In this document: in pieces, positions 4,479-30,022 of the stretch
Layout: each line of letters starts with the position of its first letter
Position numbering within the stretch: position 1 is the first letter of the stretch
Virus record (IMG/VR): IMGVR_UViG_3300024262_000018
Location: 1 to 64,000 of that record
Length of the DNA stretch: 64,000 bases
Reading direction: 5' to 3' (one strand)
From: a virus
Notes under the pieces: generated by a model
Told to the model about the DNA's origin: nothing
The model's input: the letters and a program-made list of their open reading frames with translations, nothing else
Database searches by the model: none
Translations under genes and position numbers: made by a program

Positions 4479-4492
4479 ATTTTCGGCAAAAT
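4479..4492 (-). promoter_or_regulatory. ATTTTGCCGAAAAT motif (copy 1), putative -10 element
   Basis: near-identical copies at 9159-9172 and 13239-13252; 6 nt before the ATG at 4472. Confidence 0.6.
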
Positions 4493-8247: not shown

Positions 8248-8321
8248 ATTTTTCTTTTTTCGTACAAAAAGCAACGGATTCCTATTATGTTGCGATTATA
8301 TTCTGTTTTTCCTTTAAAAAA

Positions 8322-9152
8322 TTATATATCAAGTAATAAAGTTTCTCTATTCATCGCCCGGAAAACAAGTTCTTCTTGAGAAATTTTTATAGTTAAATCT
8401 TCTTCGATATTACTAGTAAAAGCATAGCTTTCTGGTAGTAGTATTTTTCTTATATCATATTCGTTATTCTTCCTAAAAACCATAGTGAAATTGGGAATAG
8501 ACGCGATAATGCTTATCGAATTAGAAAAAGAAGGATTATGATAGAAACAGTCAGGCGTGTCAGTCGCTAAAGTCGCTGAACACCAGGGAGTGTCATATAT
8601 CTGAATAAAAGGTTTTCCAGAAAATACAGAAATATTAGCGTGTCTTAAAGCCAAAACCTCTGTTTTTTGTAATTTATTAGTTTTAAAAACTTTAGCAGGA
8701 TATTTTTTAATATTATCTTTTGGAAAAAAATCAGAAGTAATATAACAATCATCTTCTTCGCTAAATTGATAAGATGTATCTTCTGGACAAAGAGATTTGA
8801 TAAAAGAAAGAAAATTTTCATTTTCTTTTTTAATTAACTTATCTATAAGTCCCGTAATTATCGTTATTATATTTACTTTGTTCATCTCTAATTCCACTTT
8901 TGAAATCGAATAAGAGATGCAATTAGAAGAGGTTTCAATAGGTTTACTTGTTTCGAGAAAAATAGTATCGTTTTTATCACAGTCGAAGTAATAAACATCT
9001 TGCTGAGGGATGGGTGCTAGATAAAACTTATTTTTATCGATAATATCAACAGGGCAGATTTTGCGACACAATGATTGCGAATGTAGACTTTGACAGAAAG
9101 ATTTGCTCGCAACCTCAGAAATCCCCTCTATGTCTTTTAATTCGTTAATCAT
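8322..9152 (-). CDS. highly diverged paralog of the major capsid protein
   Basis: SLHSQSLCRKICPVD vs MCP SLEYQAVGRKLLMVD; IKKENENFL vs IQKEEDSNIF; SQEELVFRAMN vs IYEEVGIVVVN; similar length (276 vs 289 aa). Confidence 0.6.
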   Translation of the reverse strand: MINELKDIEGISEVASKSFCQSLHSQSLCRKICPVDIIDKNKFYLAPIPQQDVYYFDCDKNDTIFLETSKPIETSSNCISYSISKVELEMNKVNIITIITGLIDKLIKKENENFLSFIKSLCPEDTSYQFSEEDDCYITSDFFPKDNIKKYPAKVFKTNKLQKTEVLALRHANISVFSGKPFIQIYDTPWCSATLATDTPDCFYHNPSFSNSISIIASIPNFTMVFRKNNEYDIRKILLPESYAFTSNIEEDLTIKISQEELVFRAMNRETLLLDI

Positions 9153-9158
9153 ATTTAC

Positions 9159-9172
9159 ATTATCGGCAAAAT
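9159..9172 (-). promoter_or_regulatory. ATTTTGCCGATAAT motif (copy 2)
   Basis: 6 nt before the ATG at 9152, no SD. Confidence 0.6.
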
Positions 9173-9175
9173 GTA

Positions 9176-9644
9176 TTAATTTTTAACGGCTAAAACTATT
9201 TGATATGAGATAGCAACCGGCGGCCATTCCAATATTATTCCAGAGTTCTTCATTGTCTCTGTTAAATTGACGCCCTGAGCCTCGGGACAGCCAATAATTT
9301 TATAATCCCTATGTTGCCTCAAAAAAGACTTAATCTCGCTTCTCAAGGCTAATCTAGCTTCTCAAGGCTAATCTAGCAGTACCCTGCCAGTAAAGAACAC
9401 ATCGAACTTGTCGTTCTGACCAGTCTTTGTGTTTTAATCTCATTTTGTCAGTATGAGCTTTAAAATCAAATATATTATATATTGCGAAAACAGAGGAATA
9501 ATTGCTTTTAAAATGAGGAGCTTGAGGAGGGCAACCTTTCTTGACCCCGAAATTCGGGCAACCTTTTTTATGAAGAGGATATGGTTTAACACATAACCCC
9601 CTCATTTTTGAATCAATTACAGGTTTAACTTCAATCCACGGCAT
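9176..9644 (-). pseudogene. DUF2284-like metal-binding protein frameshifted by a 19-bp tandem duplication
   Basis: GCPNFG...GCPP N-terminal half; removing one repeat copy restores ...RSEIKSFLRQHRDYKIIGCPEAQGVNLTETM...WPP...KN*. Confidence 0.7.
9338..9375. repeat. exact 19-bp tandem duplication GCTTCTCAAGGCTAATCTA x2
   Basis: directly visible. Confidence 0.95.
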
Positions 9645-10164
9645 CTAATAATAACTCCTTAACTGCGTCTTTCCAGTACTCTAATGATGTGAAATTAAAT
9701 CCAATAGGATTTTCTTCTACTAATTTAATTAAACACTTATAGAATGCCAAACTGACGTTTTCTAGCCCCAATGTTTTTAAACTTATTAAAATTCTTGTTA
9801 TTCGTAGAAAATTATGATTTTTACCTGTCTGCCAATTTCCTTTTCTTTCCTCATAATTCTCACCTTTATAAATAAGAATATTAGAATTGTTTAAATCACA
9901 AGACAAACCATAAAAGTCTAACATAATTAAAAACGAAATCAATAAATTATGTCGAAGGCTTTTATTATTTTTAAATTGACTAATATCAGAAATTAATAAT
10001 TTAGGGGTAGATCTATTAAAATAGGAAGGTTCAATAATAGGAAATAGATATTGTATATAATCATGCGTATGCTCAAGCTCTTTATAGCTATATTTCCATA
10101 TATCTTCTATCGATCTTCCAGTATGATCGGGTTTTTCACTATAAAAATCGACTATTGCTGACAT
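9631..10164 (-). CDS. opioid growth factor receptor (OGFr) conserved-domain protein
   Basis: LEHTHDYIQYLFP, MLDFYG, NHNFLRITRILISL. Confidence 0.85.
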   Translation of the reverse strand: MSAIVDFYSEKPDHTGRSIEDIWKYSYKELEHTHDYIQYLFPIIEPSYFNRSTPKLLISDISQFKNNKSLRHNLLISFLIMLDFYGLSCDLNNSNILIYKGENYEERKGNWQTGKNHNFLRITRILISLKTLGLENVSLAFYKCLIKLVEENPIGFNFTSLEYWKDAVKELLLDAVD

Positions 10165-10198
10165 ATTATTTTCCCTTGTATTAATAATAGTGTACATA

Positions 10199-10230
10199 CA
10201 AAAAGGTTCACTTTTTAGGGCAAACCTTTT
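10199..10230. terminator. probable intrinsic terminator
   Basis: AAAAGGTT...AACCTTTT stem in an intergenic gap. Confidence 0.5.
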
Positions 10231-10242
10231 CGTATGTTTATA

Positions 10243-10932
10243 TTATTTTCTAATAACGTCTATAACATCTTTGCTATTAGAGTCTTGTGCTTTCTTTAAC
10301 TCGTTGTTAATAGCATCTTTTGCATCAGGATTCGCGGCTTTAAAAGCGTCAACGCCTTGTACCGTTTGAACCAATGCGGTTTCTGTTTTCTTAGTTTTAA
10401 CCCAAGTGATTAAACCGGATATCGCAGATATACCTCCTGTCGCAATTGCCGCCATAATCCCAGCGATTACTCCTGCTGGAGGCCAAACAATTGAAACAGC
10501 AGACAATATAAGCCAAATAGCAAAATAAAGAACAATAAACCAGAATATGGATTTAACAAAGTTCCATAATCCAGTTATCCAACTTTGTCCTTTAGATTTT
10601 CCAATTGATATATTGTCATTTTGAATACCTTGATCACCGGCAGCAGCTTCTGGACCACCTAAACCAAACCAACTAAAAGCTCTAAAATAAATTTTCTCGG
10701 AAGTAGCCCCCCTCCATTCTTTTTCTTCTACAACGGTTTGTAACTCGTTTTCCTCAATTGTGATCTCTGAACCCTCGGGCATTGAATTAATTCGGCTAAT
10801 TAGGTCTGAAGAGGTCTGTGACGAGGTTTGAGATTGAGTGATGTTAGATTTAATCTGTCCAACCGAATAGCCAAGAATCGAGCTGCCTAATCCTACGACA
10901 ATACAAAGAAATATTACACTTAATTTATTCAT
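10243..10932 (-). CDS. membrane protein (N-terminal anchor plus 2 TM segments)
   Basis: hydrophobic segments LSVIFLCIVVGLG, IFWFIVLYFAIWLILSAVSIVW, VIAGIMAAIATGGISAISGLI. Confidence 0.7.
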   Translation of the reverse strand: MNKLSVIFLCIVVGLGSSILGYSVGQIKSNITQSQTSSQTSSDLISRINSMPEGSEITIEENELQTVVEEKEWRGATSEKIYFRAFSWFGLGGPEAAAGDQGIQNDNISIGKSKGQSWITGLWNFVKSIFWFIVLYFAIWLILSAVSIVWPPAGVIAGIMAAIATGGISAISGLITWVKTKKTETALVQTVQGVDAFKAANPDAKDAINNELKKAQDSNSKDVIDVIRK

Positions 10933-11183
10933 TATTTATACTCCTTTGATATAACTGTTTTGCCATTTATTTTTTTAATAGTTATTATTCTGGTTTTAAT
11001 AGGAGCAGTCGTTTCTTTATAAGAATGAGTTATTCCGTCAGGTCCACCTATCTGATTCTTTATGATCGCATGAGAACAGCCAATACTGGACAATCCAATC
11101 ATTAAAAGAAAACCATACGTCAATATTCTTTTCATTATATTTCCCATATTTCTCTCCATTTTTAACAGATAGAGCTCAATCAC
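10932..11183 (-). CDS. small putative lipoprotein
   Basis: MKRILTYGFLLMIGLSSIGC lipobox-like; true start probably internal. Confidence 0.55.
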   Translation of the reverse strand: MIELYLLKMERNMGNIMKRILTYGFLLMIGLSSIGCSHAIIKNQIGGPDGITHSYKETTAPIKTRIITIKKINGKTVISKEYK

Positions 11184-11293
11184 TAATCACTTTTTCAACA
11201 AGATGTTTTGAGTTCCTCTTTTTTTTTCTAGTACATCAAAATAAGATTCAAGAGACAAGTCCCTTGAATCATTATTTTGAACTATATTTTAAT

Positions 11294-11821
11294 TTAAGCT
11301 ATTTTAATGCGAACAACGGCTTCGTAACTAATTCTTCCGCCCCAGAAAATAGCTGCCGTTAAAGTGATAACATCATCAGCAAAAACATAAGCTCTAGTAT
11401 CGCCCTTAGAAAGATGCTCGTCAAGACGGGCAAGAGTAAATGGCTCCGTATAGACTTCACCTTCTGTTAAAGTAGGCATTCTCCCGCCAAACGCATACAA
11501 AATATTTCCAAGGCCATTCTTATCTGGAAGCAAGCCAGTTGTGTGATTGGTGTCACGCGTTGGCGCAGGAGCGTAAGTTCTTAATCTTACTGGAACATTA
11601 TTCTCGTCAAAATAGCCAGGTCCAGAACCGGTCAGAGTAATTCTGACTCTCTTCTGAAAAACATATACATCATCATTGTAAACATCGATGGGTGTTCCGC
11701 TTTGAGTCGCTTGATTTCTTACTGTTCCTACAAATGATGGAACCCACGTACCGTCTGTTTTTCTCAAGTCACCAGCAAGCTGGATAGCGGGAGCCCTAAT
11801 TGGTCTAATAGCTTGGGTCAT
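11294..11821 (-). CDS. hypothetical (probable virion) protein
   Basis: 175 aa, SD AGGAG, followed by hairpin at about 11245-11270. Confidence 0.7.
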   Translation of the reverse strand: MTQAIRPIRAPAIQLAGDLRKTDGTWVPSFVGTVRNQATQSGTPIDVYNDDVYVFQKRVRITLTGSGPGYFDENNVPVRLRTYAPAPTRDTNHTTGLLPDKNGLGNILYAFGGRMPTLTEGEVYTEPFTLARLDEHLSKGDTRAYVFADDVITLTAAIFWGGRISYEAVVRIKIA

Positions 11822-11923
11822 ATTTTTATCTCCTAAAATTATACGAATCGGTATCTATGTATTATATAGAACAAATAAAATACCTTTAAGTATTTTGAAA
11901 ATTATTTATTTTTTGACAACAAG

Positions 11924-12430
11924 CTATCTGCGAGAGCCCGGATGAACAGCTCTGCCAGAAGTATCACTCCGAGGTCTTGTTGGAATATTACTATGCGAAG
12001 GAGACATACTGTTAGGTCTCATCGGAGATACTTTAGGAGACATACCAGGTCTAGATGGCATATTACCATGAGGAACTATTGGAGTCAATCTAGGCGATGG
12101 AGTCAATCTAGGCGATGGAGTCAATCTAGGCGATGGAGTCAATCTAGGCGATGGCATAACTCTATGAGGCATTACCGGTGCTGTTCTATATGGTATCGTT
12201 CTAGACTGCATATGAGGATTCATAGGATTGGGTCTATAGATCGTAATAGGAGGACGATGGACAGTTATCGGAGGACGATGCATTGTGCGAACTGGAGGAC
12301 TATATCTAGGATATACTATTGTTGGATGACTGGTATACCGCATATTCGTTCGCCCACGTTCATCACAGCCATACAACACAGAACTTGCCAATCCAAGAGT
12401 CAAAATCGCGATACAAAGTATTTTGTTCAT
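11924..12430 (-). CDS. Pro/Arg-rich exported protein with SPRLTP repeats
   Basis: signal-like N-terminus ending VLYGC; low-complexity body. Confidence 0.6.
   Translation of the reverse strand: MNKILCIAILTLGLASSVLYGCDERGRTNMRYTSHPTIVYPRYSPPVRTMHRPPITVHRPPITIYRPNPMNPHMQSRTIPYRTAPVMPHRVMPSPRLTPSPRLTPSPRLTPSPRLTPIVPHGNMPSRPGMSPKVSPMRPNSMSPSHSNIPTRPRSDTSGRAVHPGSRR
12080..12151. repeat. 18-bp in-frame tandem repeat x4 (TGGAGTCAATCTAGGCGA)
   Basis: directly visible, no spacers. Confidence 0.95.
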
Positions 12431-12516
12431 AATTTTCCCTTTCTATTAACTATATGAATAGACACTTATCTAACTATAACAACGCGAACAAAATTAAAAA
12501 TCTACAAGGAAAAATA

Positions 12517-12672
12517 TTATTTTTTCCACTCTTCTCCTTCCTGTTCGGCTAGTTTTGCTTCTATTATCTCTTCTTTTAATCTTTTTATCTCTTTCTTTGT
12601 TTCTACTATCTTTACATTAATCTCAGCGATTTGCTTCAATAATAGTTTTTTGCGCCAAGGAAGTGTCTTCAT
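12517..12672 (-). CDS. small coiled-coil hypothetical protein (51 aa, below track cutoff)
   Basis: MKTLPWRKKLLLKQIAEINVKIVETKKEIKRLKEEIIEAKLAEQEGEEWKK*. Confidence 0.55.
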   Translation of the reverse strand: MKTLPWRKKLLLKQIAEINVKIVETKKEIKRLKEEIIEAKLAEQEGEEWKK

Positions 12673-12685
12673 AAATAAAGCAATT

Positions 12686-12907
12686 TTATCCATTTTTTAT
12701 TTCCCTTTTTAAATTATATTCTTGTTTTGGTATAGCACAACCACATCCACAAGTTCCTGGCGAGCCACACCTATGATACCATGTGTTTTCTAATTCATAT
12801 TCCCAACAATAATGAATACCAAATGGATGCTTTTGCCAAGAACTACTCATATTGTTAAAAGCTGTTCCGCACTTGGAGCAAACGTGATTATCTATATTTT
12901 TATTCAT
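12686..12907 (-). CDS. small Cys-rich hypothetical protein
   Basis: CSKC...HRC...CGCGC. Confidence 0.55.
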   Translation of the reverse strand: MNKNIDNHVCSKCGTAFNNMSSSWQKHPFGIHYCWEYELENTWYHRCGSPGTCGCGCAIPKQEYNLKREIKNG

Positions 12908-13211
12908 CTGTTACGGGCCCAGACGATTGTGCGGCAATGGGATTGCCACCAAGACCTTGATATGGAGCATAATAGATCGGCACCATTTCTGTGGTTATAG
13001 CATGATGTGTAATAAGAATAGGAGACCGTCCTGTTTTTTCAGAGTCTTTAAGAGCCTCTCCTAAACATCTAGCAACGTCTTTAAGATCTTCTGGTTTAGC
13101 CGGACGAATATTATCTCCTACTTTTATCAAAGTAAGCATGCAATTTTCAGAACTTTTCCAAGGAATAGATACCGATGTTTCACTACCTGATACAACAATT
13201 TTAATTTCCAT
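12900..13211 (-). CDS. stand-alone protein homologous to the clip segment of the portal
   Basis: LIKVGDNIRPAKPEDLKDV...ILITHHAI vs portal VIKIGDKERPATAADIMDV...TLVTHHAF; SD AAGGAG. Confidence 0.75.
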   Translation of the reverse strand: MEIKIVVSGSETSVSIPWKSSENCMLTLIKVGDNIRPAKPEDLKDVARCLGEALKDSEKTGRSPILITHHAITTEMVPIYYAPYQGLGGNPIAAQSSGPVTDE

Positions 13212-13238
13212 TTTGTTCTCCTTAAAAGTATTACATAT

Positions 13239-13252
13239 ATTATCGGCAAAAT
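13239..13252 (-). promoter_or_regulatory. ATTTTGCCGATAAT motif (copy 3)
   Basis: identical to copy 2; upstream of SD and ATG at 13211. Confidence 0.6.
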
Positions 13253-14409
13253 TATTTTTTCAAAATAAAGATCGGTTCAGTATGGTAATTTACTTGTCCC
13301 TTTTTCCTATGGAATTCATTATTCGCTAATTTCATTTGATATGTTTTTTCCAATACAAAACCAATTTTTTGCGAATATGAGAGAAAATCATCAGCAATTG
13401 AAAACTTATCGTAGTTTTTTATGTTTATGGCTAAATAAGATCCAGCCTTTAAAACCCTATAACTCTCATCTACAATTTTATACAAAAATCCATCCAGCCA
13501 GTCTTGATAAATAGGGAATTTTACAGAACTTTGATTTTTATCTTTAGAATACTCTTCTACATCAAAATAAGGAGGAGACGTAAAAACTAAATCATAATAA
13601 TCACTCCGTAACAAGGGCATTACCTCCTCTGCACATCCAAGATGGAATCCTGTTCTAAAGGAGTAATCATTCTTAAAAAATGAAGCACACTCTATGTTCC
13701 CTTTTATTGTTCTTTCATCTGGGTCTATACCTGTATAATTAATATTTTTATTAGCAGATATGACTCCACACAATCTTCCAGAGAATCCAGCACAAGGATC
13801 TATTATATTCCCGTTCAATGGGATATAAGTATCATAAATAAATTTTGCTATTACTGGTTTAAAATTACAAACAGTTCTAACTCCATTCCGAGTTTTTAAA
13901 ATCTTCCTCATCCCAACGTTACTAGGAACAATGTCTAAATCTAATGCTCTTTTTATACAATCTCTAAACTTCTTATCATCCAAAAAAGCTGTTATAGGAC
14001 TGAAACGACTACGATTTCCGTGTCCAACTTCTAACATGTGATTGTGAAACGAACTCGCTAATGATGTGCCAGAATAATTCGACTGTAAAAGATTATTATC
14101 TAAAAGCGGAGAAGATGAACGAGAAAGAGATAACATTTTTTTATTCTTTTCTTCATCAGACGGTTTATAATAGGGAAATCCAGCGTCTCTATAATGCTTA
14201 AAAATAATATCAATAATAGAATTCCGATATTCTTCGTTTTCGTGGTACGCTTTTAAAAGTTTTTTAAAATCATTTTTGTCATTTATATAGGATAAAGCGG
14301 CATCTCTAATAAAATTACTCTTGCTTTTCCCGAATAAAGCAGATTTTATTTTAATTGTCCTGTGATCTTCTTCACTTATCCGAAGAAGTATGTTGCTTGA
14401 TTTTTCCAT
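13252..14409 (-). CDS. amino-DNA methyltransferase (m6A/m4C) with N-terminal RHH-like domain
   Basis: IDPCAGFSGR (SAM-binding motif I), FTSPPYF (motif IV); ILLRISEEDHRTIKIKSALFGKSKSNFIRDA at N-terminus. Confidence 0.85.
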   Translation of the reverse strand: MEKSSNILLRISEEDHRTIKIKSALFGKSKSNFIRDAALSYINDKNDFKKLLKAYHENEEYRNSIIDIIFKHYRDAGFPYYKPSDEEKNKKMLSLSRSSSPLLDNNLLQSNYSGTSLASSFHNHMLEVGHGNRSRFSPITAFLDDKKFRDCIKRALDLDIVPSNVGMRKILKTRNGVRTVCNFKPVIAKFIYDTYIPLNGNIIDPCAGFSGRLCGVISANKNINYTGIDPDERTIKGNIECASFFKNDYSFRTGFHLGCAEEVMPLLRSDYYDLVFTSPPYFDVEEYSKDKNQSSVKFPIYQDWLDGFLYKIVDESYRVLKAGSYLAINIKNYDKFSIADDFLSYSQKIGFVLEKTYQMKLANNEFHRKKGQVNYHTEPIFILKK

Positions 14410-14410
14410 A

Positions 14411-15337
14411 TTATTTCTCCCAATTAATTTCGTCTTTAAATCGCCTTTTAAACATATCATATTCTTTTTTGCCAACAATTGTTATTTTAACTCCAAATTT
14501 CTTCACAACTTCTTTCATTATCGCTCTATTTTTAACACATGTCTTACACGGGCAAATCCACTCACTAGAAGATCTTGCATGCCCCTTTATCTCATAATAT
14601 CTATTTTTATCTGCAAAATAAAAATCTGGACAATACGAAAAACTGTCATTTCCTAGTTTAATATAAAAACGTTTTGTTTCATATCTATACTGCCTATTAA
14701 ATTTTTGATATATCCTCGCCATGTTCGCTTCCCAAGTACTTCTTACATAATGCCCAATATCAACTCTTATCCCTCCCTTGCCCCTTCCAGAGCCTTTAGG
14801 AGAAGGTTTTCCGTACATAGGGTTTCCTTTACCTCTAAAACTTCTTCTATTTTTATAGCCTTTTGCACGAGCTTTTTTACAATCATCCGTATCAAATTTT
14901 CCATCCTTCCATGCTTGCTTAACTGCTAAAGATACATTTTTATTATGATCTGCTGTTTTTTGGATCTTCTTCATTTCTCTAGATATTTTTCTGCGTCGGA
15001 TATCTTCCATGTTATCAATTTTTAATTTATTTTTAAACATATCAAGAACGTATCCATTGCTAATCGCGGCAAAAATATTTTTAGCATTATATAATTTTTT
15101 AAAGAATTCAAAGACATTCCCTTTATGATCAAGATAAATTTTAAGTGCCTGTTTTATATTTTTTTTCAAAAAAGATTGATGTTTAATGTCTTTGCTTTTC
15201 TTTATGTGAACAAATATTTTCCAATATTTATCATATTTTTTGTTGCAAATTGGACACTCTTCGAAAAGAGCATATTCGGTTTTCATGTCTCTAAATTTTT
15301 TATTTCTTTTTGCGTTAGTCTCTTTTTTGCAAGGCAT
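14411..15337 (-). CDS. homing-type endonuclease: zinc finger, NUMOD3, PD-(D/E)xK domain
   Basis: CPIC...H; GKGNPMYGK (NUMOD3); RSTWEAN...YCPDF...YEIKG. Confidence 0.8.
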   Translation of the reverse strand: MPCKKETNAKRNKKFRDMKTEYALFEECPICNKKYDKYWKIFVHIKKSKDIKHQSFLKKNIKQALKIYLDHKGNVFEFFKKLYNAKNIFAAISNGYVLDMFKNKLKIDNMEDIRRRKISREMKKIQKTADHNKNVSLAVKQAWKDGKFDTDDCKKARAKGYKNRRSFRGKGNPMYGKPSPKGSGRGKGGIRVDIGHYVRSTWEANMARIYQKFNRQYRYETKRFYIKLGNDSFSYCPDFYFADKNRYYEIKGHARSSSEWICPCKTCVKNRAIMKEVVKKFGVKITIVGKKEYDMFKRRFKDEINWEK

Positions 15338-15492: not shown

Positions 15493-16362
15493 TTAGGTAG
15501 CAGAACTTACATCAATTCTTGAGACGGCATAGTCGTTAACGACTACTATACCCACTTCCTCATAAATTACCCAACCCAAGCGGAGCTTCTTTGGATCGTC
15601 AGCAGGCAATACTGTTATATCTTGACGAATCGGAAAAGCGCCAACTGTATCAGGCGAAGCAACTACTAGAACTGTTGCAACTGGCATACGGCTTGAAACG
15701 TGAATATCAGCGGTGTAGAGGTGACCATAAAGGCCAGTTGTGATAATTTCACGCTGAGTTGCCTCATCATAGAAAGTCTTGCCGAAGGCACGGACGCTAG
15801 CGAACTGGCGAGCATGCATAACAATCTTCGTAGCAACAAGGTCATGCTCTTCGATCATGCGGAAAGCAGTGTTCAAAGAAGCGATTGACAAGGTTCCGAA
15901 GTTAGAAACGATGTTACCAGCAGTCGTTGCAGCAGCTAGAAGGGCATTGAAGATATTGCTATCTTCTTCCTTCTGGATAGCTTCCTTAGCCTTGATCTGA
16001 GCTCGGTCTACGATGTAGAAACGACGAGCCTTGATCTCGCTAAGACGAACTGTTGGATGAGCAGCAATTTCGAACGTAGGAACTAGGATTTCCTCGCCTT
16101 CCTGAATTTGATCAGGTACGGCACCTCTACGAGAAACTACGTGAGCAACTGAGGCAACGTCACGCTCGTAACGAGCAAGAGCACCTTGGGGAAGCTCATC
16201 AACCATCAAAAGCTTACGACCGACAGCCTGATACTCTAACGAACGGCGAATTGGTTCTACCATTGCCTGAGCTAGAGCAGTACGTCCCTCGTCTGTTTCC
16301 AGAGCTTGGGCAATAACATCTTCCTTCTCTCTATCTGTTAAACTATTTTTACTTAAAGACAT
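15493..16362 (-). CDS. major capsid protein (HK97 fold)
   Basis: LAQAMVEPIRRSLEYQAVGRKLL, PTFEIAAHP, KLRLGWVIYEEVG; follows protease/scaffold and decoration genes; biased codon usage; strong terminator. Confidence 0.9.
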   Translation of the reverse strand: MSLSKNSLTDREKEDVIAQALETDEGRTALAQAMVEPIRRSLEYQAVGRKLLMVDELPQGALARYERDVASVAHVVSRRGAVPDQIQEGEEILVPTFEIAAHPTVRLSEIKARRFYIVDRAQIKAKEAIQKEEDSNIFNALLAAATTAGNIVSNFGTLSIASLNTAFRMIEEHDLVATKIVMHARQFASVRAFGKTFYDEATQREIITTGLYGHLYTADIHVSSRMPVATVLVVASPDTVGAFPIRQDITVLPADDPKKLRLGWVIYEEVGIVVVNDYAVSRIDVSSAT

Positions 16363-24669: not shown

Positions 24670-25131
24670 CTAAGCTTTGATGCGTCTTGGAATCTTTTTA
24701 TTTGCTAAATCGGCAAGAGTCATATTAGTCTGGTGAGGAGGAAACTGCACCCCCCACATCTGGCTTGCATGCCTCAAAGCAGATAGCAAACTTGGAAAAT
24801 ACTTTCCACTTGGAGCATAAACTTTTTTACGTTCGTGTTTAGGAGGTAATTTTTTAATTCCAGCAAAGAATGCTACTTCTCCATATTTTTTCTTGGCCGG
24901 TCCAACAACTACAAAATAATCAGAATTTGTAGTGTAATCGTGCCCCTCCCATCTTCGATAAGCTCCCTCTCCTATATCTTTGTCAAATCTTTTTTTAAGG
25001 GGAAGAGATTTTTCTGAGTAATGTTCTTTCCACCTTATACCCCTATCTCTAATTCTTTTTCTTTTATTAGTAGATAAGTATGTGGCGTATTTACATAGAT
25101 TATAAAAAGATCTTATCATTTTATTGCCCAA
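24670..25131 (-). CDS. hypothetical basic protein
   Basis: overlaps the portal stop. Confidence 0.7.
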   Translation of the reverse strand: MGNKMIRSFYNLCKYATYLSTNKRKRIRDRGIRWKEHYSEKSLPLKKRFDKDIGEGAYRRWEGHDYTTNSDYFVVVGPAKKKYGEVAFFAGIKKLPPKHERKKVYAPSGKYFPSLLSALRHASQMWGVQFPPHQTNMTLADLANKKIPRRIKA

Positions 25132-28100
25132 TTAGATATAAACAACCTAAGTCGTCCTCTAATACTATTTTATTATAAACTATATTATCCTTTGACAAAT
25201 TCTCAAATGTTAATATATTCGCTATTTTTTCTAATGGGTCTCCAGAAGATTTTTTATTGAATCTCTTTTTCTGATCGGCAGAAGCAGCAGCGATTTGTTG
25301 GTCTATAATACTTTTAATGGCATCGGGTTGCTGCTGGATCGCGTCTTCTTTGAATCTTAAAATTCTCCAACCAATATTAGCTAATTTCTGATCCCTCTGG
25401 TTATCTCTTATCTTAGAATCTACGTTCTCATGCCAGGCTTTTCCATCCGCCTCAATCCCGACTCCAAGAGCAGGGTAAGCAAAGTCCATAACGAATGGCT
25501 GGTTCTCTCCTGTCGGCTGTACTGCATACTGTAAATATAGTTGCTGGGAAATATCTACTCCCTGTATTATTTTATATAATTTTTGCTCTAAAGTCGTTAA
25601 CTTGATAAAGCGAGGAGCAGCAGGCTTCATCTGTTCATCTAATTTCTTGCCACCATGTCCCTTTTTTCCTACTTTAAAGTTAGAAGGGAGAGCTCCTGCA
25701 CTCGGACCCATACCACCGGCTGCACCTGGAGCCATTGGAGCCCCGCCAGCACCTCCCGGCATCCCGCCCTCCATACCTCCTGGCATGCCGCCCGGCATAC
25801 CGCCCGGCATACCGCCCATATCAGCCCCACCAAGACCTTCTGGCATCGGAGGAGCGCCACCGAGACCGCCCAGATCTCCCATGCCACCCATACCCGGCAT
25901 ACCGCCGCCACCTGGCATTTGCCCTTGCGGTCCTGCGACAACTTGCTCTTCTCGCAATCTTTCGACTTCTTGATCATAATCAACATCAAATTCTTGCAAT
26001 AGTTTTTGGCTACTAATCAGTTGCTTATCATGTAGCTGCATCATCAGTTGTAAGTGCCCACTTTTGTCTCTAAGATTCAAATCTTCCCATTTCAGTTTGG
26101 GATATAGAAACTCTGTTTCGCCTAACTCTTCTGAATCTTTCTCATTAATGAATCCCTGCATCATAGCAACAGGAAGGAAAATGTGATTTTCAACCCATTC
26201 TGCTAAAGTGGTTCGCCAACTCTCTAATCTCCGAATCATCGTTTCAACGCCGACTTGGGCAGAAGAATAACTATTTCCCTGTATTGTTATTTTACCATTT
26301 CTCTTTGTTACGAAAAGCCCATGTGGAACTTCGAAACAATAAACCTTGCCAGAATAATCTATTTGTGAGATTTCATCTAAAGTTAAATTTATCATTTCAA
26401 TATTCTGACAATTGCCATCAAAACCATTTGTAATTCCAAGTATCTTCGCTCGTCTTCTAACATCTTGAGCATCTACAAATCTAAAACCATCGTGTTCCCG
26501 AGGCTGTATCCACATTCTATGGTTAGGAGTAGTTAAAATATCAATTTTATCAGTTTTAAATTTTATCATTTTTCCAGAATAGTCATATACGTTTTTATTG
26601 ATAAAATTATGATATTCTAACATTTTTGTTTCAGGATTATAACAAGCGATTTTATCATTTTCATCTATGTCAAAATGATTTTTAAAACCATCATCTGTTA
26701 GCGTCAGTGTTTCTTCGTCATGACAGCTCATTTCTCCGTTCAATAAAGCTTGATTAAGCATCAATCCATCAAGAATTTCTTTGCCGATTTGTTCAAGTTC
26801 GGCAGTAATGTTGTGTATTTTGCCGGTGTTGCCCTGTATCGCAACTCTTCCGTTTCTCATTGTAACGAAGAAGCCAGTAGAAGTTGTATAGCACCAAACC
26901 TTGCCTTTATAATATTTAGATTTAATATGTTCCTGTTTAATACGAGGGAACCTCCCCTTCCCGGTATTAGTTAAATTACAATTTACAACAAATTGTTTAT
27001 CTTTTTTGTAAGGACTTAATACAGGAGAATAACCAGCCTTAAACATTATTTCTACAAGATCGTTAGCTAAATGCTCAGAATCGGTCCCGCACTGAACAGC
27101 CTCTGTCGTTTTATAAAAATATCTACTTGCATCTCCATTGCAATAAGAATCTATAAATATTTTTAATTTTTCTGGAGGCAAATTTTTAATAAATTGAGGT
27201 ATTTTTTTATTATTAGAATTTGTTCCAAACCATTCCTTAAGAACCTTTACCACTTCTTTTATTAAAATGTCCCAAGTTGTTACTCTTCCCTCATAAGCAT
27301 ATTTATGATATTTAATCCCCAATTTTCCCATAATTTGATCTATTTCATCACAAATGTCAGCATTTTTTTCAGGACATTGAGAAAATGAAAGCCTATACGC
27401 TCTTTTATCTTTATCAAATATAGAATATCCTTCTGCAACATAATATCCAGCAAATTTAAGAAATGGTTCTATATCTACATCGTGTCCCGCAATATGAACA
27501 GACTCTATATCTTGATCAGAAATATAATCTGCTACGCATCGAACATAACTGTCTCCATGACCCGCAATCTTAGCAAACTTACGAGCTTCCATTGTATAAG
27601 CTGTTTTTTTGTCACGCTTATATCCTAACATTTTGTGATTAGGAGTTACGCACATATCTATTTTATTACCCTTAAACTCTACCATATAATTATCGAAATC
27701 ATATACATGCAAAGCCTCAGGTTCCTCATATCTCATTTCATTAGAGTCTGGATCAAAGACCATAATTTCGTCATTTTCTTCTATATCCCAGTAATTTTTC
27801 CATCCTCCAGATTTACATAAAGCCTTAGTATCACTGGAGTTACAGGCCCCGTACCATTCATAGTCAAAAGCGTGGTGGGTAACTAGGGTCAAGTTTGGAT
27901 CATTTGCAACAGCAGTGATTTGGTTAGAGACATCCATAATATCTGCTGCTGTAGCTGGACGCTCTTTATCTCCGATTTTAATAACTCTAACTGGCAGAAT
28001 AAGTCTTTCAGCGACGATCCAGTTAGCTGTCATTAATTTTGTTTTATATGCTAATATAGTGAATAATCTTCTAAGTAGAGACGTTCCATAGATCCCATAT

Positions 28101-30022
28101 GGACTAGCATTGTGTTTAATATGGCTAACACATCTATTTGATAGAGGTATTGGTCTTCCATTCGACACCATATCTATAAGTCTTTTAGGCAATCTGCGAT
28201 ATATTTGTATTGGATCTTTTTTAGAAACTATTTGTCTCAATTCTTCATCAGGAACTAATGTTATACTGGGCTCGCTCGCTAAAACATTGCTTTGAACTTC
28301 TATCCAATCTGGGTTTAAAACAACAAGTCGTTTTATTGTTCCTCCGGGGTGATTGCAGGGTTCTCCATCTGATTTAACATTTGTCCCATTACAAACGCCA
28401 CACTGGATTTCGGTAAAGGGGAATACATCTCCAATCATGAAATACTCATGACTTATCAATTTAAGCCAATGATTTAATTTTAAGTCTTTAACTAATCTTT
28501 CATAGTACTTAAGAACTTTCTTATTAGAGCATTCTAAAGTGAAGCCATTCATGGAAAAGTTCGAATAAAAATCGACGCCAGCGGCGATTTTTGGCTCATT
28601 TTCGTAGTAGAAACGACTATTTTTTACTACAATATTTTCAGCAATATAGCTATTATCTTGGTCAATTTCGATATTATATACAAACCCGCTATAAGGGACC
28701 GTATATACATCTTGTATTTTTCTAGCTATATAATTTTCATCTATTTTTCTTACACCTTTAAAATTACCATTTTTCGTTTTAAGATTTTCTTTATCTTTAA
28801 TTTTTTCTATTTTATTCTTTTCGCAAGCCCCTTTTGGCAATAAAATATGATAATGTGTAATATCATCTTTTGTTACTTGATCGTATAATTTAAATTCTAT
28901 ACCAAGTCTCATACAAAGAAAACAAATTTGTTGAGACATATCTTTGCTAGCAGAGACAAGTTCCAAGTACCCCCATTTTTTATTAACATGTCCGTCGCCA
29001 GTAAATAGTCCTGTTAGAAATGATGAAATACTATCTAGGGGAAGTCGAATCAAATTATCATTTAATTTTTTATTTCTCGCTCCATGCCCCACAAAAGAAT
29101 AGCACAGGTCGGCAAGACTCTTGTTATAGATATGAATATCCCAAGAATTATTTATTCCATTTATCCCTCTATTGGGATATATATTAATTTTACAATTATA
29201 ATATTTATTAACTATTTCTTTTAATTTTTTTATTACATTTTCTTCTGTTTTAGATATTGTTAGGCGTATTCCTTTGGGTCGTTTAGTGTCTTTATATTCA
29301 TACCAAGCAATGCAGCCTTCAGCAGCGTACAGACCAAGTAAAAAGCAAATATCTTGATTTAGTAAAATATCTTTATTCTCCTCAACCTTAACTATCGGTG
29401 TAAAAAGATAATCCCCAACTTCAATTTTTGATGAAGGAGTCCAATCTATATCTTTAGGTTGATTATCATACTCTGCAAATTGATTTATGAGTTCAGAAGA
29501 GGCAATTTTACTTTTTGAACAACCAACAAGTTCTTTTATATTCTCTTTTGATAAATGTAATATCTTATGATTTCCTGTTATATTAATCTTTCTTTTTAAC
29601 CCACAAGAAGATATGCGATAAATATCTTCATTAACATATCTTTTCCCCTTATCTATTACTTTTCTCGACTGTCCAGTATGACTAATAACACAATCTCCGA
29701 CATTCACTTCAGATATCGGTTTTGATGTCCCATCGCTCATAAGTATTAACGTTTCAGGGACTAAACACCACATATATACTTCTCTTCTTTTTGAAGCGAT
29801 TTGCCAATTCTGCGGAGTATGCAGTGGAGAGAAGAACATTGGTTGAGCCATAGTCACATTCGCGGCTGAGCCTGCGAACTGAGCATTTTTAGTAATAGGC
29901 AGATTAGCAGTAACACTGCTAGAATAATGAGTTTTATCAGAATTCCCAGTTTTTACTATGTTATTGGAATTTGATATCTTATCCTGCGTAGCTTTATTTG
30001 GTATGGAGAATTTTAGTGGCAT
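25121..30022 (-). CDS. portal protein with three inteins, Gly/Met/Pro linker and C-terminal DUF559/Vsr-like nuclease domain
   Basis: exteins RFYYENEPKIAAGVDFY, LNPDWIEV, YGTSLLRR, SSAQVGVE, PKLKWEDLNL; C-terminal MDFAYP..GIEADGKAWH..RDQKLANIGWRILRF. Confidence 0.85.
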   Translation of the reverse strand: MPLKFSIPNKATQDKISNSNNIVKTGNSDKTHYSSSVTANLPITKNAQFAGSAANVTMAQPMFFSPLHTPQNWQIASKRREVYMWCLVPETLILMSDGTSKPISEVNVGDCVISHTGQSRKVIDKGKRYVNEDIYRISSCGLKRKINITGNHKILHLSKENIKELVGCSKSKIASSELINQFAEYDNQPKDIDWTPSSKIEVGDYLFTPIVKVEENKDILLNQDICFLLGLYAAEGCIAWYEYKDTKRPKGIRLTISKTEENVIKKLKEIVNKYYNCKINIYPNRGINGINNSWDIHIYNKSLADLCYSFVGHGARNKKLNDNLIRLPLDSISSFLTGLFTGDGHVNKKWGYLELVSASKDMSQQICFLCMRLGIEFKLYDQVTKDDITHYHILLPKGACEKNKIEKIKDKENLKTKNGNFKGVRKIDENYIARKIQDVYTVPYSGFVYNIEIDQDNSYIAENIVVKNSRFYYENEPKIAAGVDFYSNFSMNGFTLECSNKKVLKYYERLVKDLKLNHWLKLISHEYFMIGDVFPFTEIQCGVCNGTNVKSDGEPCNHPGGTIKRLVVLNPDWIEVQSNVLASEPSITLVPDEELRQIVSKKDPIQIYRRLPKRLIDMVSNGRPIPLSNRCVSHIKHNASPYGIYGTSLLRRLFTILAYKTKLMTANWIVAERLILPVRVIKIGDKERPATAADIMDVSNQITAVANDPNLTLVTHHAFDYEWYGACNSSDTKALCKSGGWKNYWDIEENDEIMVFDPDSNEMRYEEPEALHVYDFDNYMVEFKGNKIDMCVTPNHKMLGYKRDKKTAYTMEARKFAKIAGHGDSYVRCVADYISDQDIESVHIAGHDVDIEPFLKFAGYYVAEGYSIFDKDKRAYRLSFSQCPEKNADICDEIDQIMGKLGIKYHKYAYEGRVTTWDILIKEVVKVLKEWFGTNSNNKKIPQFIKNLPPEKLKIFIDSYCNGDASRYFYKTTEAVQCGTDSEHLANDLVEIMFKAGYSPVLSPYKKDKQFVVNCNLTNTGKGRFPRIKQEHIKSKYYKGKVWCYTTSTGFFVTMRNGRVAIQGNTGKIHNITAELEQIGKEILDGLMLNQALLNGEMSCHDEETLTLTDDGFKNHFDIDENDKIACYNPETKMLEYHNFINKNVYDYSGKMIKFKTDKIDILTTPNHRMWIQPREHDGFRFVDAQDVRRRAKILGITNGFDGNCQNIEMINLTLDEISQIDYSGKVYCFEVPHGLFVTKRNGKITIQGNSYSSAQVGVETMIRRLESWRTTLAEWVENHIFLPVAMMQGFINEKDSEELGETEFLYPKLKWEDLNLRDKSGHLQLMMQLHDKQLISSQKLLQEFDVDYDQEVERLREEQVVAGPQGQMPGGGGMPGMGGMGDLGGLGGAPPMPEGLGGADMGGMPGGMPGGMPGGMEGGMPGGAGGAPMAPGAAGGMGPSAGALPSNFKVGKKGHGGKKLDEQMKPAAPRFIKLTTLEQKLYKIIQGVDISQQLYLQYAVQPTGENQPFVMDFAYPALGVGIEADGKAWHENVDSKIRDNQRDQKLANIGWRILRFKEDAIQQQPDAIKSIIDQQIAAASADQKKRFNKKSSGDPLEKIANILTFENLSKDNIVYNKIVLEDDLGCLYLIGQ
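26273..26725 (-). mobile_element. portal intein 3 (mini-intein, no endonuclease)
   Basis: CHDEETLTLT...TTPNH...VYCFEV...IQGN|S, 151 aa. Confidence 0.9.
26828..27844 (-). mobile_element. portal intein 2 (LAGLIDADG)
   Basis: CNSSDTKAL...VTPNH...AGYYVAEG...VWCYT...IQGN|T. Confidence 0.9.
28619..29767 (-). mobile_element. portal intein 1 (LAGLIDADG)
   Basis: CLVPETLILMSDG...ITGNH...LLGLYAAEG...FTGDG...VYNIEI...VVKN|S. Confidence 0.9.

What the first reader, a model, noticed from the sequence alone, without database searches (positions are those of the whole stretch)
12900..13211. Stand-alone mini-protein duplicating only the portal clip region
Seen: LIKVGDNIRPAKPEDLKDV...ILITHHAI matches portal VIKIGDKERPATAADIMDV...TLVTHHAF with several consecutive identities; own SD, intact 103-aa ORF. 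Inference: by position between the stem helices this is the clip domain where terminase and adaptors dock, so a free clip could titrate terminase or a portal-sensing receptor.
Basis: partly seen in the sequence, partly recalled or inferred. Interest (0 to 1): 0.75.

Follow-up and report, generated by a model that had tools for sequence, protein, structure and literature searches.

The report
Free-standing portal clip mini-protein family
[quoted passage not shown] It belongs to an undescribed family of over a hundred such mini-proteins, and what they do is untested.

Summary
ORF 12900-13211 (-) is intact, has an AAGGAG ribosome-binding site, and matches portal residues 668-722 (BLASTP 21/60, E 1e-6; profile-profile 98.9%, E 2.4e-17).

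The clip assignment also holds. In a model of an intein-free portal homologue, the segment lies between the two stem helices of a portal fold.

It is not a lone or recent duplicate:
- An exhaustive search and two DNA-pattern scans found about 120 small relatives. Of the 83 database proteins, 62 have one copy of the domain, 20 have two and 1 has three.
- All keep KVG-x3-RPA-x3-D and THHA, motifs that the portal family also keeps invariant. They lack the portal-only ANDPN and GATGK loops.
- On a tree, portal clips separate from the minis (support 97.8), and this gene sits deep among the minis.
- Three of five complete relatives of 460-548 kb carry 1-2 copies, far from their portal gene.
- No Pfam or PHROG family covers them.

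Function is untested. I read it as a clip mimic that pairs strands or presents the RPA tip. Terminase titration and immune decoy remain open, and a repurposed fold is equally plausible. A note from this scan on the same window (e1-6025108) had flagged the gene; nothing was noted on other DNA.

The parts
12900..13211 (-). Mini-protein gene, 103 aa, stop codon included
   Evidence: Intact ORF. The mini-family profile scores it at E 6e-32. The identical protein is in the public protein collection on one 113,959-base contig.
12966..13139 (-). Clip-like core, residues 25-82. Predicted order: strand 1 (ending KVG), RPA turn, helix, variable loop, strand 2 (THHA), strand 3.
   Evidence: hhalign places mini 25-82 on portal homologue P0032 296-348, probability 98.9%, E 2.4e-17. 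The only secondary-structure hint for the mini itself is a low-confidence single-sequence model (short strand elements 29-31 and 34-36, helix 40-60).
13140..13211 (-). N-terminal extension, residues 1-24, starting with a hydrophobic MEIKIVV-type stretch. It replaces the portal's first stem helix.
   Evidence: The same kind of N-terminus occurs in the nearest relatives P0003, P0004, P0008, P0011, P0014 and P0023. That it forms an extra strand is my inference.
12903..12965 (-). C-terminal tail, residues 83-103, rich in Gly, Pro and Ala and not conserved. It replaces the portal's second stem helix.
   Evidence: These alignment columns are poorly conserved and partly gapped in the family.
13218..13223 (-). 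Shine-Dalgarno AAGGAG, 6 nt upstream of the ATG
   Evidence: Read directly from the sequence.
13239..13252 (-). 14-bp motif ATTTTGCCGATAAT, ending 27 nt upstream of the ATG and overlapping the stop of the methyltransferase gene. Candidate promoter or cassette boundary.
   Evidence: Three copies in the window against 0.16 expected by chance. Homology with the closest relative L001 (91% nt) ends at 13246, inside this motif.
12686..12907 (-). Downstream 73-aa Cys-rich ORF whose start overlaps the mini gene's end by 8 nt. Possibly translationally coupled.
   Evidence: No Pfam or PHROG hit. In other phages a Zn-ribbon is fused to a mini domain or encoded close by.
27848..28021 (-). Clip segment of the phage's own portal gene (ORF 25121..30022). 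It ends at the insertion site of the portal's second intein.
   Evidence: BLASTP places the match at portal 668-722. The profile hit covers 27848-27988, E 1.5e-12. Intein-free homologues join ...WYGA directly to TGKI....

Best explanation
SHOWN:
- The gene encodes a free-standing homologue of the portal clip domain, without the stem, wing or crown.
- It is one member of an old, diversified and so far uncatalogued family of mini-proteins with one, two or three copies of the domain. Some members carry a fused Zn-ribbon, a basic tail or another N-terminal domain.
- Some members lie in huge phages that have this same portal type.
- The family keeps what the portal family keeps invariant in strand 1 (KVG), the turn before the helix (RPA), one helix Asp, and strand 2 (THHA).
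- It has lost the portal-only loops (ANDPN, GATGK).

INFERRED mechanism: it works as a clip mimic.
- In portals, the clip strands zip neighbouring subunits into a shared three-stranded sheet, and the clip tip docks the large terminase and later the neck.
- A clip freed from the ring has open strand edges and an exposed tip.
- It should therefore self-associate side by side. The tandem-repeat relatives would be this arrangement in one chain.
- It could also occupy a protein that normally binds the clip. I rank candidate partners as portal protomers or the packaging and neck machinery (its own or a competing phage's) first, and a host portal sensor second.

Odds: identity about 0.9. Any clip-type protein-protein mechanism about 0.4. 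Terminase titration specifically about 0.15.
For: Homology:
- BLASTP E 1e-6, family profile E 1.5e-12, hhalign E 2.4e-17.
- The reverse also works: the portal profile finds a mini gene in another phage record at profile positions 302-344, E 3e-5.

Clip position:
- AlphaFold model with helices flanking 295-352.
- Foldseek top hits are all portals.
- The T4 definition: three strands plus a helix between the stem helices, the only main-chain inter-subunit sheet, and the docking site of gp17 and gp13 (PMC4493910).

Family size and spread:
- 30 hits at E<1e-3 in 1.84 billion representatives; all but one (P0010, a 664-aa repeat protein I set aside as spurious) are 56-204 aa.
- 64 clusters by profile search.
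- 83 database proteins: 62 single, 20 double, 1 triple.
- 31 more ORFs in 30 metagenome loci.
- 1-2 copies in 3 of 5 complete relatives.

Constraint:
- G32 and P37 are invariant. V31, A38, D42, T68, H69, H70 and A71 are at least 90% conserved at about 35% overall identity.
- dN<dS in three pairs (0.43/2.1, 0.51/3.5, 0.46/0.83). dS is saturated, so this is weak.
- Gene order is conserved within subfamilies across 4-11 loci.
- Strong SD.

Tip argument (by eye, not statistical): T4 gp20 reads strand, then N-M-P-A-R-K, then helix. The reported terminase-contact residues N291, M292, R295 and K296 flank the same Pro-Ala that is the family's RPA.
Against: - No binding has been shown for any partner.
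- The mini family does not keep the portal family's invariant helix-to-strand loop (ANDPN-LT) or the channel-loop motif (GATGK). It is therefore not a faithful copy of the whole exposed clip surface.
- Three subfamilies sit next to PhoH, dATP/dGTP diphosphohydrolase or RNase H-like genes, not next to terminase or portal.
- In complete genomes the minis lie 40-280 kb from the portal.
- The shared residues could be purely fold-determining.
- The mapping to T4 contact residues failed statistically (hhalign probability 0.06).
- The mini's own fold could not be modelled (pLDDT 35).
Confidence: 0.4

Rival explanations
1. Repurposed fold. The clip-derived strand-helix-hairpin unit was recruited long ago as a small scaffold for a job unrelated to portal partners. 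Candidates are a regulator or a nucleic-acid or metal binder working with replication or nucleotide-metabolism genes. The shared motifs would then be fold determinants only.
For: - Conserved neighbours are PhoH, a dATP/dGTP diphosphohydrolase, an RNase H-like protein and a nucleoside deoxyribosyltransferase-like protein.
- Some members carry fused Zn-ribbons or very basic N-terminal tails.
- The portal-specific loops are lost.
- A Cys-rich ORF overlaps the gene's end in the window.
Against: - The same polar residues (Arg, Asp, Thr-His-His) stay at 81-100% in both families across deep divergence. That is more than a simple fold would need.
- Tandem repeats fit side-by-side clip packing.
- Where complete genomes could be checked, the family co-occurs with this portal type.
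Confidence: 0.3
2. Immune decoy. The free clip binds a host receptor that senses portal protein (Avs4, Avs11 or RAZR type) without triggering it, or soaks it up before the real portal is made.
For: - Portals are direct triggers of Avs4, which is said to sense portal monomers (10.1101/2025.11.14.688446), of Avs11 (10.64898/2026.01.04.697583) and of RAZR (PMC13017515).
- The minis have the distribution typical of counter-defence genes. They are sporadic (3 of 5 complete relatives), multi-copy, fast-diverging, and sit in variable regions among small genes.
- The window gene starts a block (8,300-13,250) with no counterpart in 80 related loci.
Against: - A fragment that resembles the trigger might just as well activate the sensor.
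- It is only 35% identical to its own portal clip, and the surface loops differ.
- My paper searches found no phage decoy of a protein sensor of this kind.
- The host and its defences are unknown; the source is a subsurface metagenome.
Confidence: 0.15
3. Decaying leftover. A fragment of a duplicated or recombined portal gene, for example extein sequence dragged along by intein or homing-endonuclease activity, that happens still to be open.
For: - The matched segment ends 3 residues before the second intein of the portal.
- A nuclease gene and a methyltransferase gene lie just upstream.
Against: - There is no Hint or endonuclease sequence in or beside the ORF.
- The upstream nuclease and methyltransferase are shared by 12-18 relatives that lack the mini.
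- blastn finds nothing in 80 related loci, 21 of which include the portal clip, that matches the gene's DNA.
- The ORF has a strong SD and a full-length N-terminus shared with relatives.
- There are more than 100 intact relatives with conserved motifs, and dN<dS.
- It is placed deep inside the mini group.
Confidence: 0.03

Closest known systems
Clip domain of tailed-phage portal proteins, for example T4 gp20 residues 279-358, and the clip of this phage's own portal (phrog_16240; nearest named relative Bacillus phage G gp14)
   Same: - Significant sequence homology to the clip of this portal family.
- Same order of elements: strand, Pro-Ala turn, helix, strand, strand.
- The same invariant residues: KVG, RPA, Asp, THHA.
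- Phage G gp14 has a weaker version of the motif at the same place.
   Different: - No stem helices, wing or crown, and only 103 aa instead of about 750.
- It lacks the portal-invariant ANDPN loop, F338, W342 and the GATGK channel loop.
- It has its own N-terminal stretch and a disordered-looking tail.
- It is encoded as a separate gene and, in relatives, as tandem repeats or fused to other small domains.
Paralogues of virion proteins kept as separate genes, such as T4 gp24 (vertex protein, a paralogue of major capsid protein gp23). From general knowledge; gp24 is annotated 'capsid vertex protein'.
   Same: A structural-gene-derived paralogue maintained by selection alongside the original gene.
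   Different: gp24 is a full-length paralogue that is built into the virion. Here only one roughly 55-residue domain is copied, the copies are sporadic and multi-copy, and there is no evidence that they are virion components.
Phage or satellite proteins that interfere with packaging by binding the packaging machinery, such as SaPI Ppi binding the small terminase (from general knowledge, not tested here)
   Same: A small accessory protein proposed to act by protein-protein binding on the packaging apparatus.
   Different: Those proteins are not derived from the portal. No binding or interference has been shown for this family.

Membership tests
Portal clip domain (as a fold and homology unit) | Sequence homology to the clip segment of a bona fide portal | tested here: met
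   BLASTP E 1e-6, family profile E 1.5e-12, hhalign probability 98.9%.
Portal clip domain (as a fold and homology unit) | The homologous portal segment lies between the two stem helices of a portal fold | tested here: met
   Model of P0032 has helix 273-294, segment 295-352, then helix 353-366. Foldseek hits are portals, E 1.6e-10. Definition from PMC4493910.
Portal clip domain (as a fold and homology unit) | Three strands plus one helix in the mini-protein itself | tested here: inconclusive
   The single-sequence model has pLDDT 35; it shows short strand elements at 29-31 and 34-36 and a helix at 40-60. No further fold job was available for an alignment-based model.
Portal clip domain (as a fold and homology unit) | Strands pair with a neighbouring subunit, or with itself, in a shared sheet | not testable with these tools
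   This needs a structure or a biophysical measurement of oligomeric state. Tandem-repeat relatives are only suggestive.
Portal protein (complete) | Wing, stem, clip and crown in one chain of several hundred residues that forms the dodecameric channel | tested here: not met
   103 aa. The match covers only positions 296-348 of a 755-position portal profile. No portal family hit in Pfam or PHROGs.
Any curated protein family (Pfam-A, PHROGs v4) | Significant match to a family model | tested here: not met
   The window protein has no Pfam hit at E up to 10, and its best PHROG E-value is 0.088. Of 62 family members scanned, none has a Pfam family and only three have unrelated single PHROG hits.
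Intein or homing-endonuclease remnant | Hint or endonuclease sequence, or DNA identity to the portal's extein flank | tested here: not met
   No such domains in the ORF. Amino-acid identity to its own portal clip is only 35%.
Anti-defence decoy of portal sensors | Binds or blocks a portal-sensing receptor | not tested
   No host or receptor is known for this uncultivated phage.

The most novel reading that the evidence does not exclude
Huge phages carry a diversified arsenal of free portal-clip domains in single, double and triple form. These would assemble like segments of the portal's outer ring and act as molecular mimics of the portal. As mimics they would either blind host receptors that sense portal protein (Avs4, Avs11 or RAZR type), or capture the terminase or portal subunits of competing phages. 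This would be the first case of a virion-protein domain copied out to serve as a decoy.
Probability: 0.2. Interest if true: 0.85.

Novelty: new variant of a known kind. Interest (0 to 1): 0.6.

Why it matters
The clip is the portal's business end. It holds the ring together by strand pairing, docks the packaging motor and then docks the neck. Portals are also among the phage proteins that bacterial immune receptors recognise.

A selected, widespread family of clip domains that exist on their own has not been catalogued. There is no Pfam or PHROG model, and my searches found no paper. If these proteins bind clip partners, they would be natural competitors of portal-terminase, portal-neck or portal-sensor contacts. 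That would make them both a new layer of phage-phage or phage-host conflict and a ready-made tool for dissecting those contacts. If they do something unrelated, they still show how a virion domain can be copied out and reused.

The family can be tested by expression in laboratory strains, even though the source phage is uncultivated.

Tried and rejected
With the mini itself, P0190 or P0166 it found no relatives in IMG/VR.
- tblastn of the mini against 50,697 GenBank phage records found no match at E 0.1.
- PDB sequence searches with the mini, the portal extein segment and the portal profile found no portal. The only hits were to the C-terminal DUF559 nuclease domain.
- ESM Atlas gave no usable hit.

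Modelling and alignment that failed:
- Single-sequence AlphaFold of the mini gave pLDDT 35 and is unusable.
- Complex prediction with the mini (alignment A4) and the stem-clip-stem fragment of portal homologue P0032 (residues 268-420) gave 'no answer', score 0.02 against a mark of 0.32. This is not evidence either way. TerL was not tried because only one job was allowed.
- hhalign and hmmsearch of the portal or mini profiles against T4 gp20 gave nothing significant (probability 0.06, E 0.14-0.67). The mapping to T4 contact residues therefore rests on an eye alignment of strand, x-P-A, helix and of [AS]TGKI[KH]N.

Other blanks:
- No RNA holder was listed for this stretch.
- In run X3 a contig replaces 12530-13113 with 382 other letters. 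I could not read that contig.
- Paper searches for a portal-derived decoy or stand-alone clip protein found none.

Ideas rejected:
- Pseudogene or decaying duplicate, and intein-homing remnant (see the rival explanations).
- Recent intragenomic duplication: identity to its own portal is lower than to other portals, and the tree places it elsewhere.
- The neighbouring idea that ORF 8322-9152 is a diverged capsid copy got no support from BLASTP (E 0.8) or PHROGs (no family).

The direction and date of the split between portal clips and minis could not be resolved with 53 alignment columns.

Full report
**What is there**

ORF 12900..13211 on the minus strand is intact: 103 aa with an ATG start. 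AAGGAG sits 6 nt upstream of the start. The window is the first 64 kb of a 113,959-base virus record that CheckV rates 26% complete, so it is a fragment of a huge phage. All genes from 343 to 46735 run on the same strand.

Upstream of the mini gene lie, in order:
- the major capsid gene 15493-16362 (phrog_2522, E 8e-66);
- a 308-aa nuclease-like gene;
- an RHH-methyltransferase gene that ends at 13252.

Downstream, a 73-aa Cys-rich ORF overlaps the mini's end by 8 nt.

**The similarity is real**

The quoted portal string lies in ORF 25121..30022(-), which is 1633 aa long. This ORF is a portal (phrog_16240, E 5e-34) interrupted by inteins and ending in a DUF559 nuclease domain.
- BLASTP of mini against portal gives 21/60 identities, E 1e-6, with mini 18-75 matching portal 668-722.
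- A profile of the mini family finds only two places in the whole record: the mini (6e-32) and this portal segment (1.5e-12).
- Profile against profile, the mini family and 62 intein-free portals align with probability 98.9%, E 2.4e-17, with mini 25-82 on P0032 296-348.

**It is the clip**

341 shorter relatives of the portal were found, and the 120 listed are mostly about 750 aa. Motif context printed for five of them shows WYGA joined directly to TGKI, where the window portal carries its second intein.

I modelled P0032, which is 77% identical over the query segment, using 62 sequences. Mean pLDDT was 70.6, and above 85 in the wing and stem.
- The model has helix 273-294, then segment 295-352 containing a helix at 311-324, then helix 353-366 and a long helix 381-418.
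- Foldseek returns only portals at the top: Pakpunavirus P7-1, T4 gp20, T1, HFTV1 and G20c, E down to 1.6e-10.

The T4 gp20 paper defines the clip as three strands and one helix connecting the two stem helices. It describes the clip as exposed outside the capsid and as the docking site of the terminase gp17 and the neck protein gp13. [quoted passage not shown]

The low model confidence at 327-344 fits strands that need a neighbour, although that link is my inference.

**It is not a lone duplicate but a family**

- HMMER against 1.84 billion representatives found 30 hits at E<1e-3. Apart from one 664-aa repeat protein (P0010), which I set aside as spurious, they are 56-204 aa long.
- A profile search gave 64 clusters.
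- Of 83 collected proteins, 62 have one domain, 20 have two and 1 has three. Among 105 domains, 79 read RPA and 83 read THHA.
- A DNA pattern built from the motif hit the window once. It found 1 true member in IMG/VR, on a 297,710-base record, and 31 ORFs in 30 metagenome loci.
- No Pfam or PHROG model covers the family.
- GenBank phages gave no tblastn hit.

**What is conserved**

Across about 35% overall identity, the family conserves these positions:

| Position(s) | Conservation |
|---|---|
| G32, P37 | invariant |
| V31, A38, D42, T68, H69, H70, A71 | at least 90% |
| K30, R36 | 81% |

The portal family is invariant or nearly so at the same positions. The portals also keep P296, R298, Q320, A325-N-D-P-N-L-T331, F338, W342 and G344-A-T-G-K348. 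The minis do not keep these, and they carry a variable, longer loop there instead.

Bacillus phage G gp14, the nearest named portal at 32% identity, shows a weaker form of the motif at the same place.

By eye, T4 gp20 reads strand, then N-M-P-A-R-K, then helix. The residues reported to touch gp17 (N291, M292, R295, K296) flank the same Pro-Ala, and T4 also has STGKIKN where these portals have ATGKIHN. These two resemblances are not statistically supported: hhalign probability was 0.06.

**Evolution**

- On a quick maximum-likelihood tree of 159 domains, the 23 portal clips (this phage's own and phage G's included) separate from the 136 minis with SH-aLRT 97.8. The window protein groups with P0003 and P0008 (support 91).
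- It is 35% identical to its own portal and 40-42% identical to some other portals.
- dN is below dS in three pairs (ratios about 0.2, 0.15 and 0.56). dS is saturated, so this is weak support.
- The root, and therefore the direction of the split, could not be resolved.

**Distribution and context**

Eighty loci around related capsid genes (70-98% identity) contain no mini within 10 kb. The mini profile hits only their portals, E down to 6e-12.

Whole-record searches gave:
- three of five complete relatives (460-548 kb) carry one or two minis, 40-280 kb from the portal gene;
- five partial records show only the portal.

The closest relative, L001 (91% nt identity), shares the capsid, nuclease and methyltransferase genes. 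Its homology stops at 13246, and a different gene follows. That break lies inside a 14-bp motif, ATTTTGCCGATAAT, present three times in the window against 0.16 expected. None of the nine proteins encoded from 8322 to 13211 has a counterpart near the capsid gene of the 80 relatives (the mini matches only their portals), whereas the nuclease and methyltransferase recur in 12 and 18 of them.

Elsewhere, subfamilies have their own conserved neighbours:
- one precedes a 141-aa protein and PhoH, in 8-11 loci;
- one sits beside a dATP/dGTP diphosphohydrolase, with a metallopeptidase-like and a deoxyribosyltransferase-like gene upstream;
- one, with an extra N-terminal domain, precedes an RNase H-like gene.

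In one complete genome (G002), a Zn-ribbon that is a separate gene near the mini in another phage is fused to the mini domain.

The window gene occurs letter-perfect in a run from a second study. The likely source sample is a subsurface metagenome.

**Reading**

Shown:
- a selected, free-standing clip-domain gene family;
- this gene as a typical member, placed at the edge of a variable block with its own SD and a recurrent upstream motif.

Inferred:
- Because the family keeps the two strands that make the inter-subunit sheet and the Pro-Ala tip, it most likely works through clip-type protein contacts. That means self-association (the tandem repeats point this way) and occupation of a clip-binding partner.
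- Which partner it occupies is open. The loss of the portal-only loops and the non-packaging neighbourhoods argue against a faithful terminase decoy.
- The sporadic, multi-copy, variable-region distribution fits a conflict gene, whether decoy or inter-phage weapon.
- A repurposed fold with an unrelated role is nearly as likely.

The one complex prediction allowed (mini with a portal stem-clip fragment) gave no answer and is not used as evidence.

**Verdict**

- "Duplicate of this portal" should be corrected to "member of an old clip-derived mini-protein family".
- The functional proposal is untested.

Noticed in passing
window 25121-30022 (-): The portal ORF carries three intein-like inserts, at about residues 85-468, 726-1069 and about 1104-1260. 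It ends in a Gly/Met/Pro-rich linker plus a DUF559/Vsr-like nuclease domain. Most of the roughly 750-aa intein-free homologues listed carry the same nuclease domain, so the fusion is a family trait, not a peculiarity of this genome.
   Followed up: partly
window 4479-4492, 9159-9172, 13239-13252 (-): The motif ATTTTGCCGAWAAT occurs three times on the gene strand, against 0.16 expected. One copy marks the exact point where homology with the closest relative ends, which suggests a promoter or a cassette-exchange boundary.
   Followed up: partly
BLASTP against the capsid protein gives E 0.8 and PHROGs gives no family, so sequence evidence does not support it. No fold comparison was done.
   Followed up: partly
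window 13252-15337 (-): The nuclease-like (308 aa) and RHH-methyltransferase (408 aa) genes after the capsid gene recur at the same place in 12 and 18 of 80 related loci at about 50% identity. They are therefore a long-standing module rather than a recent insertion.
   Followed up: partly
L120 7968-8420 (-) and L089 1605-1802 (+): A CxxC...YCSxxC Zn-ribbon is fused to the N-terminus of a mini domain in one complete 548-kb phage. In another phage it is a separate 65-aa gene about 0.7 kb upstream of the mini, which hints at a functional link.
   Followed up: no
L203 1484-6794 (+): Downstream of a mini gene, one metagenome contig carries about 14 consecutive paralogous small genes. All of them start with MK(I/T)R-x-GFVSNSSSSSF.
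   Followed up: no
L125 5994-9116 (+): One mini subfamily sits in a block with a dATP/dGTP diphosphohydrolase N-terminal domain protein and a nucleoside 2-deoxyribosyltransferase-like protein. This points to DNA-precursor or base-modification chemistry in these phages.
   Followed up: no
L190 235-792 (+): Two separate mini genes lie head to tail on one short contig. This may be an intermediate between single genes and the fused tandem forms.
   Followed up: no
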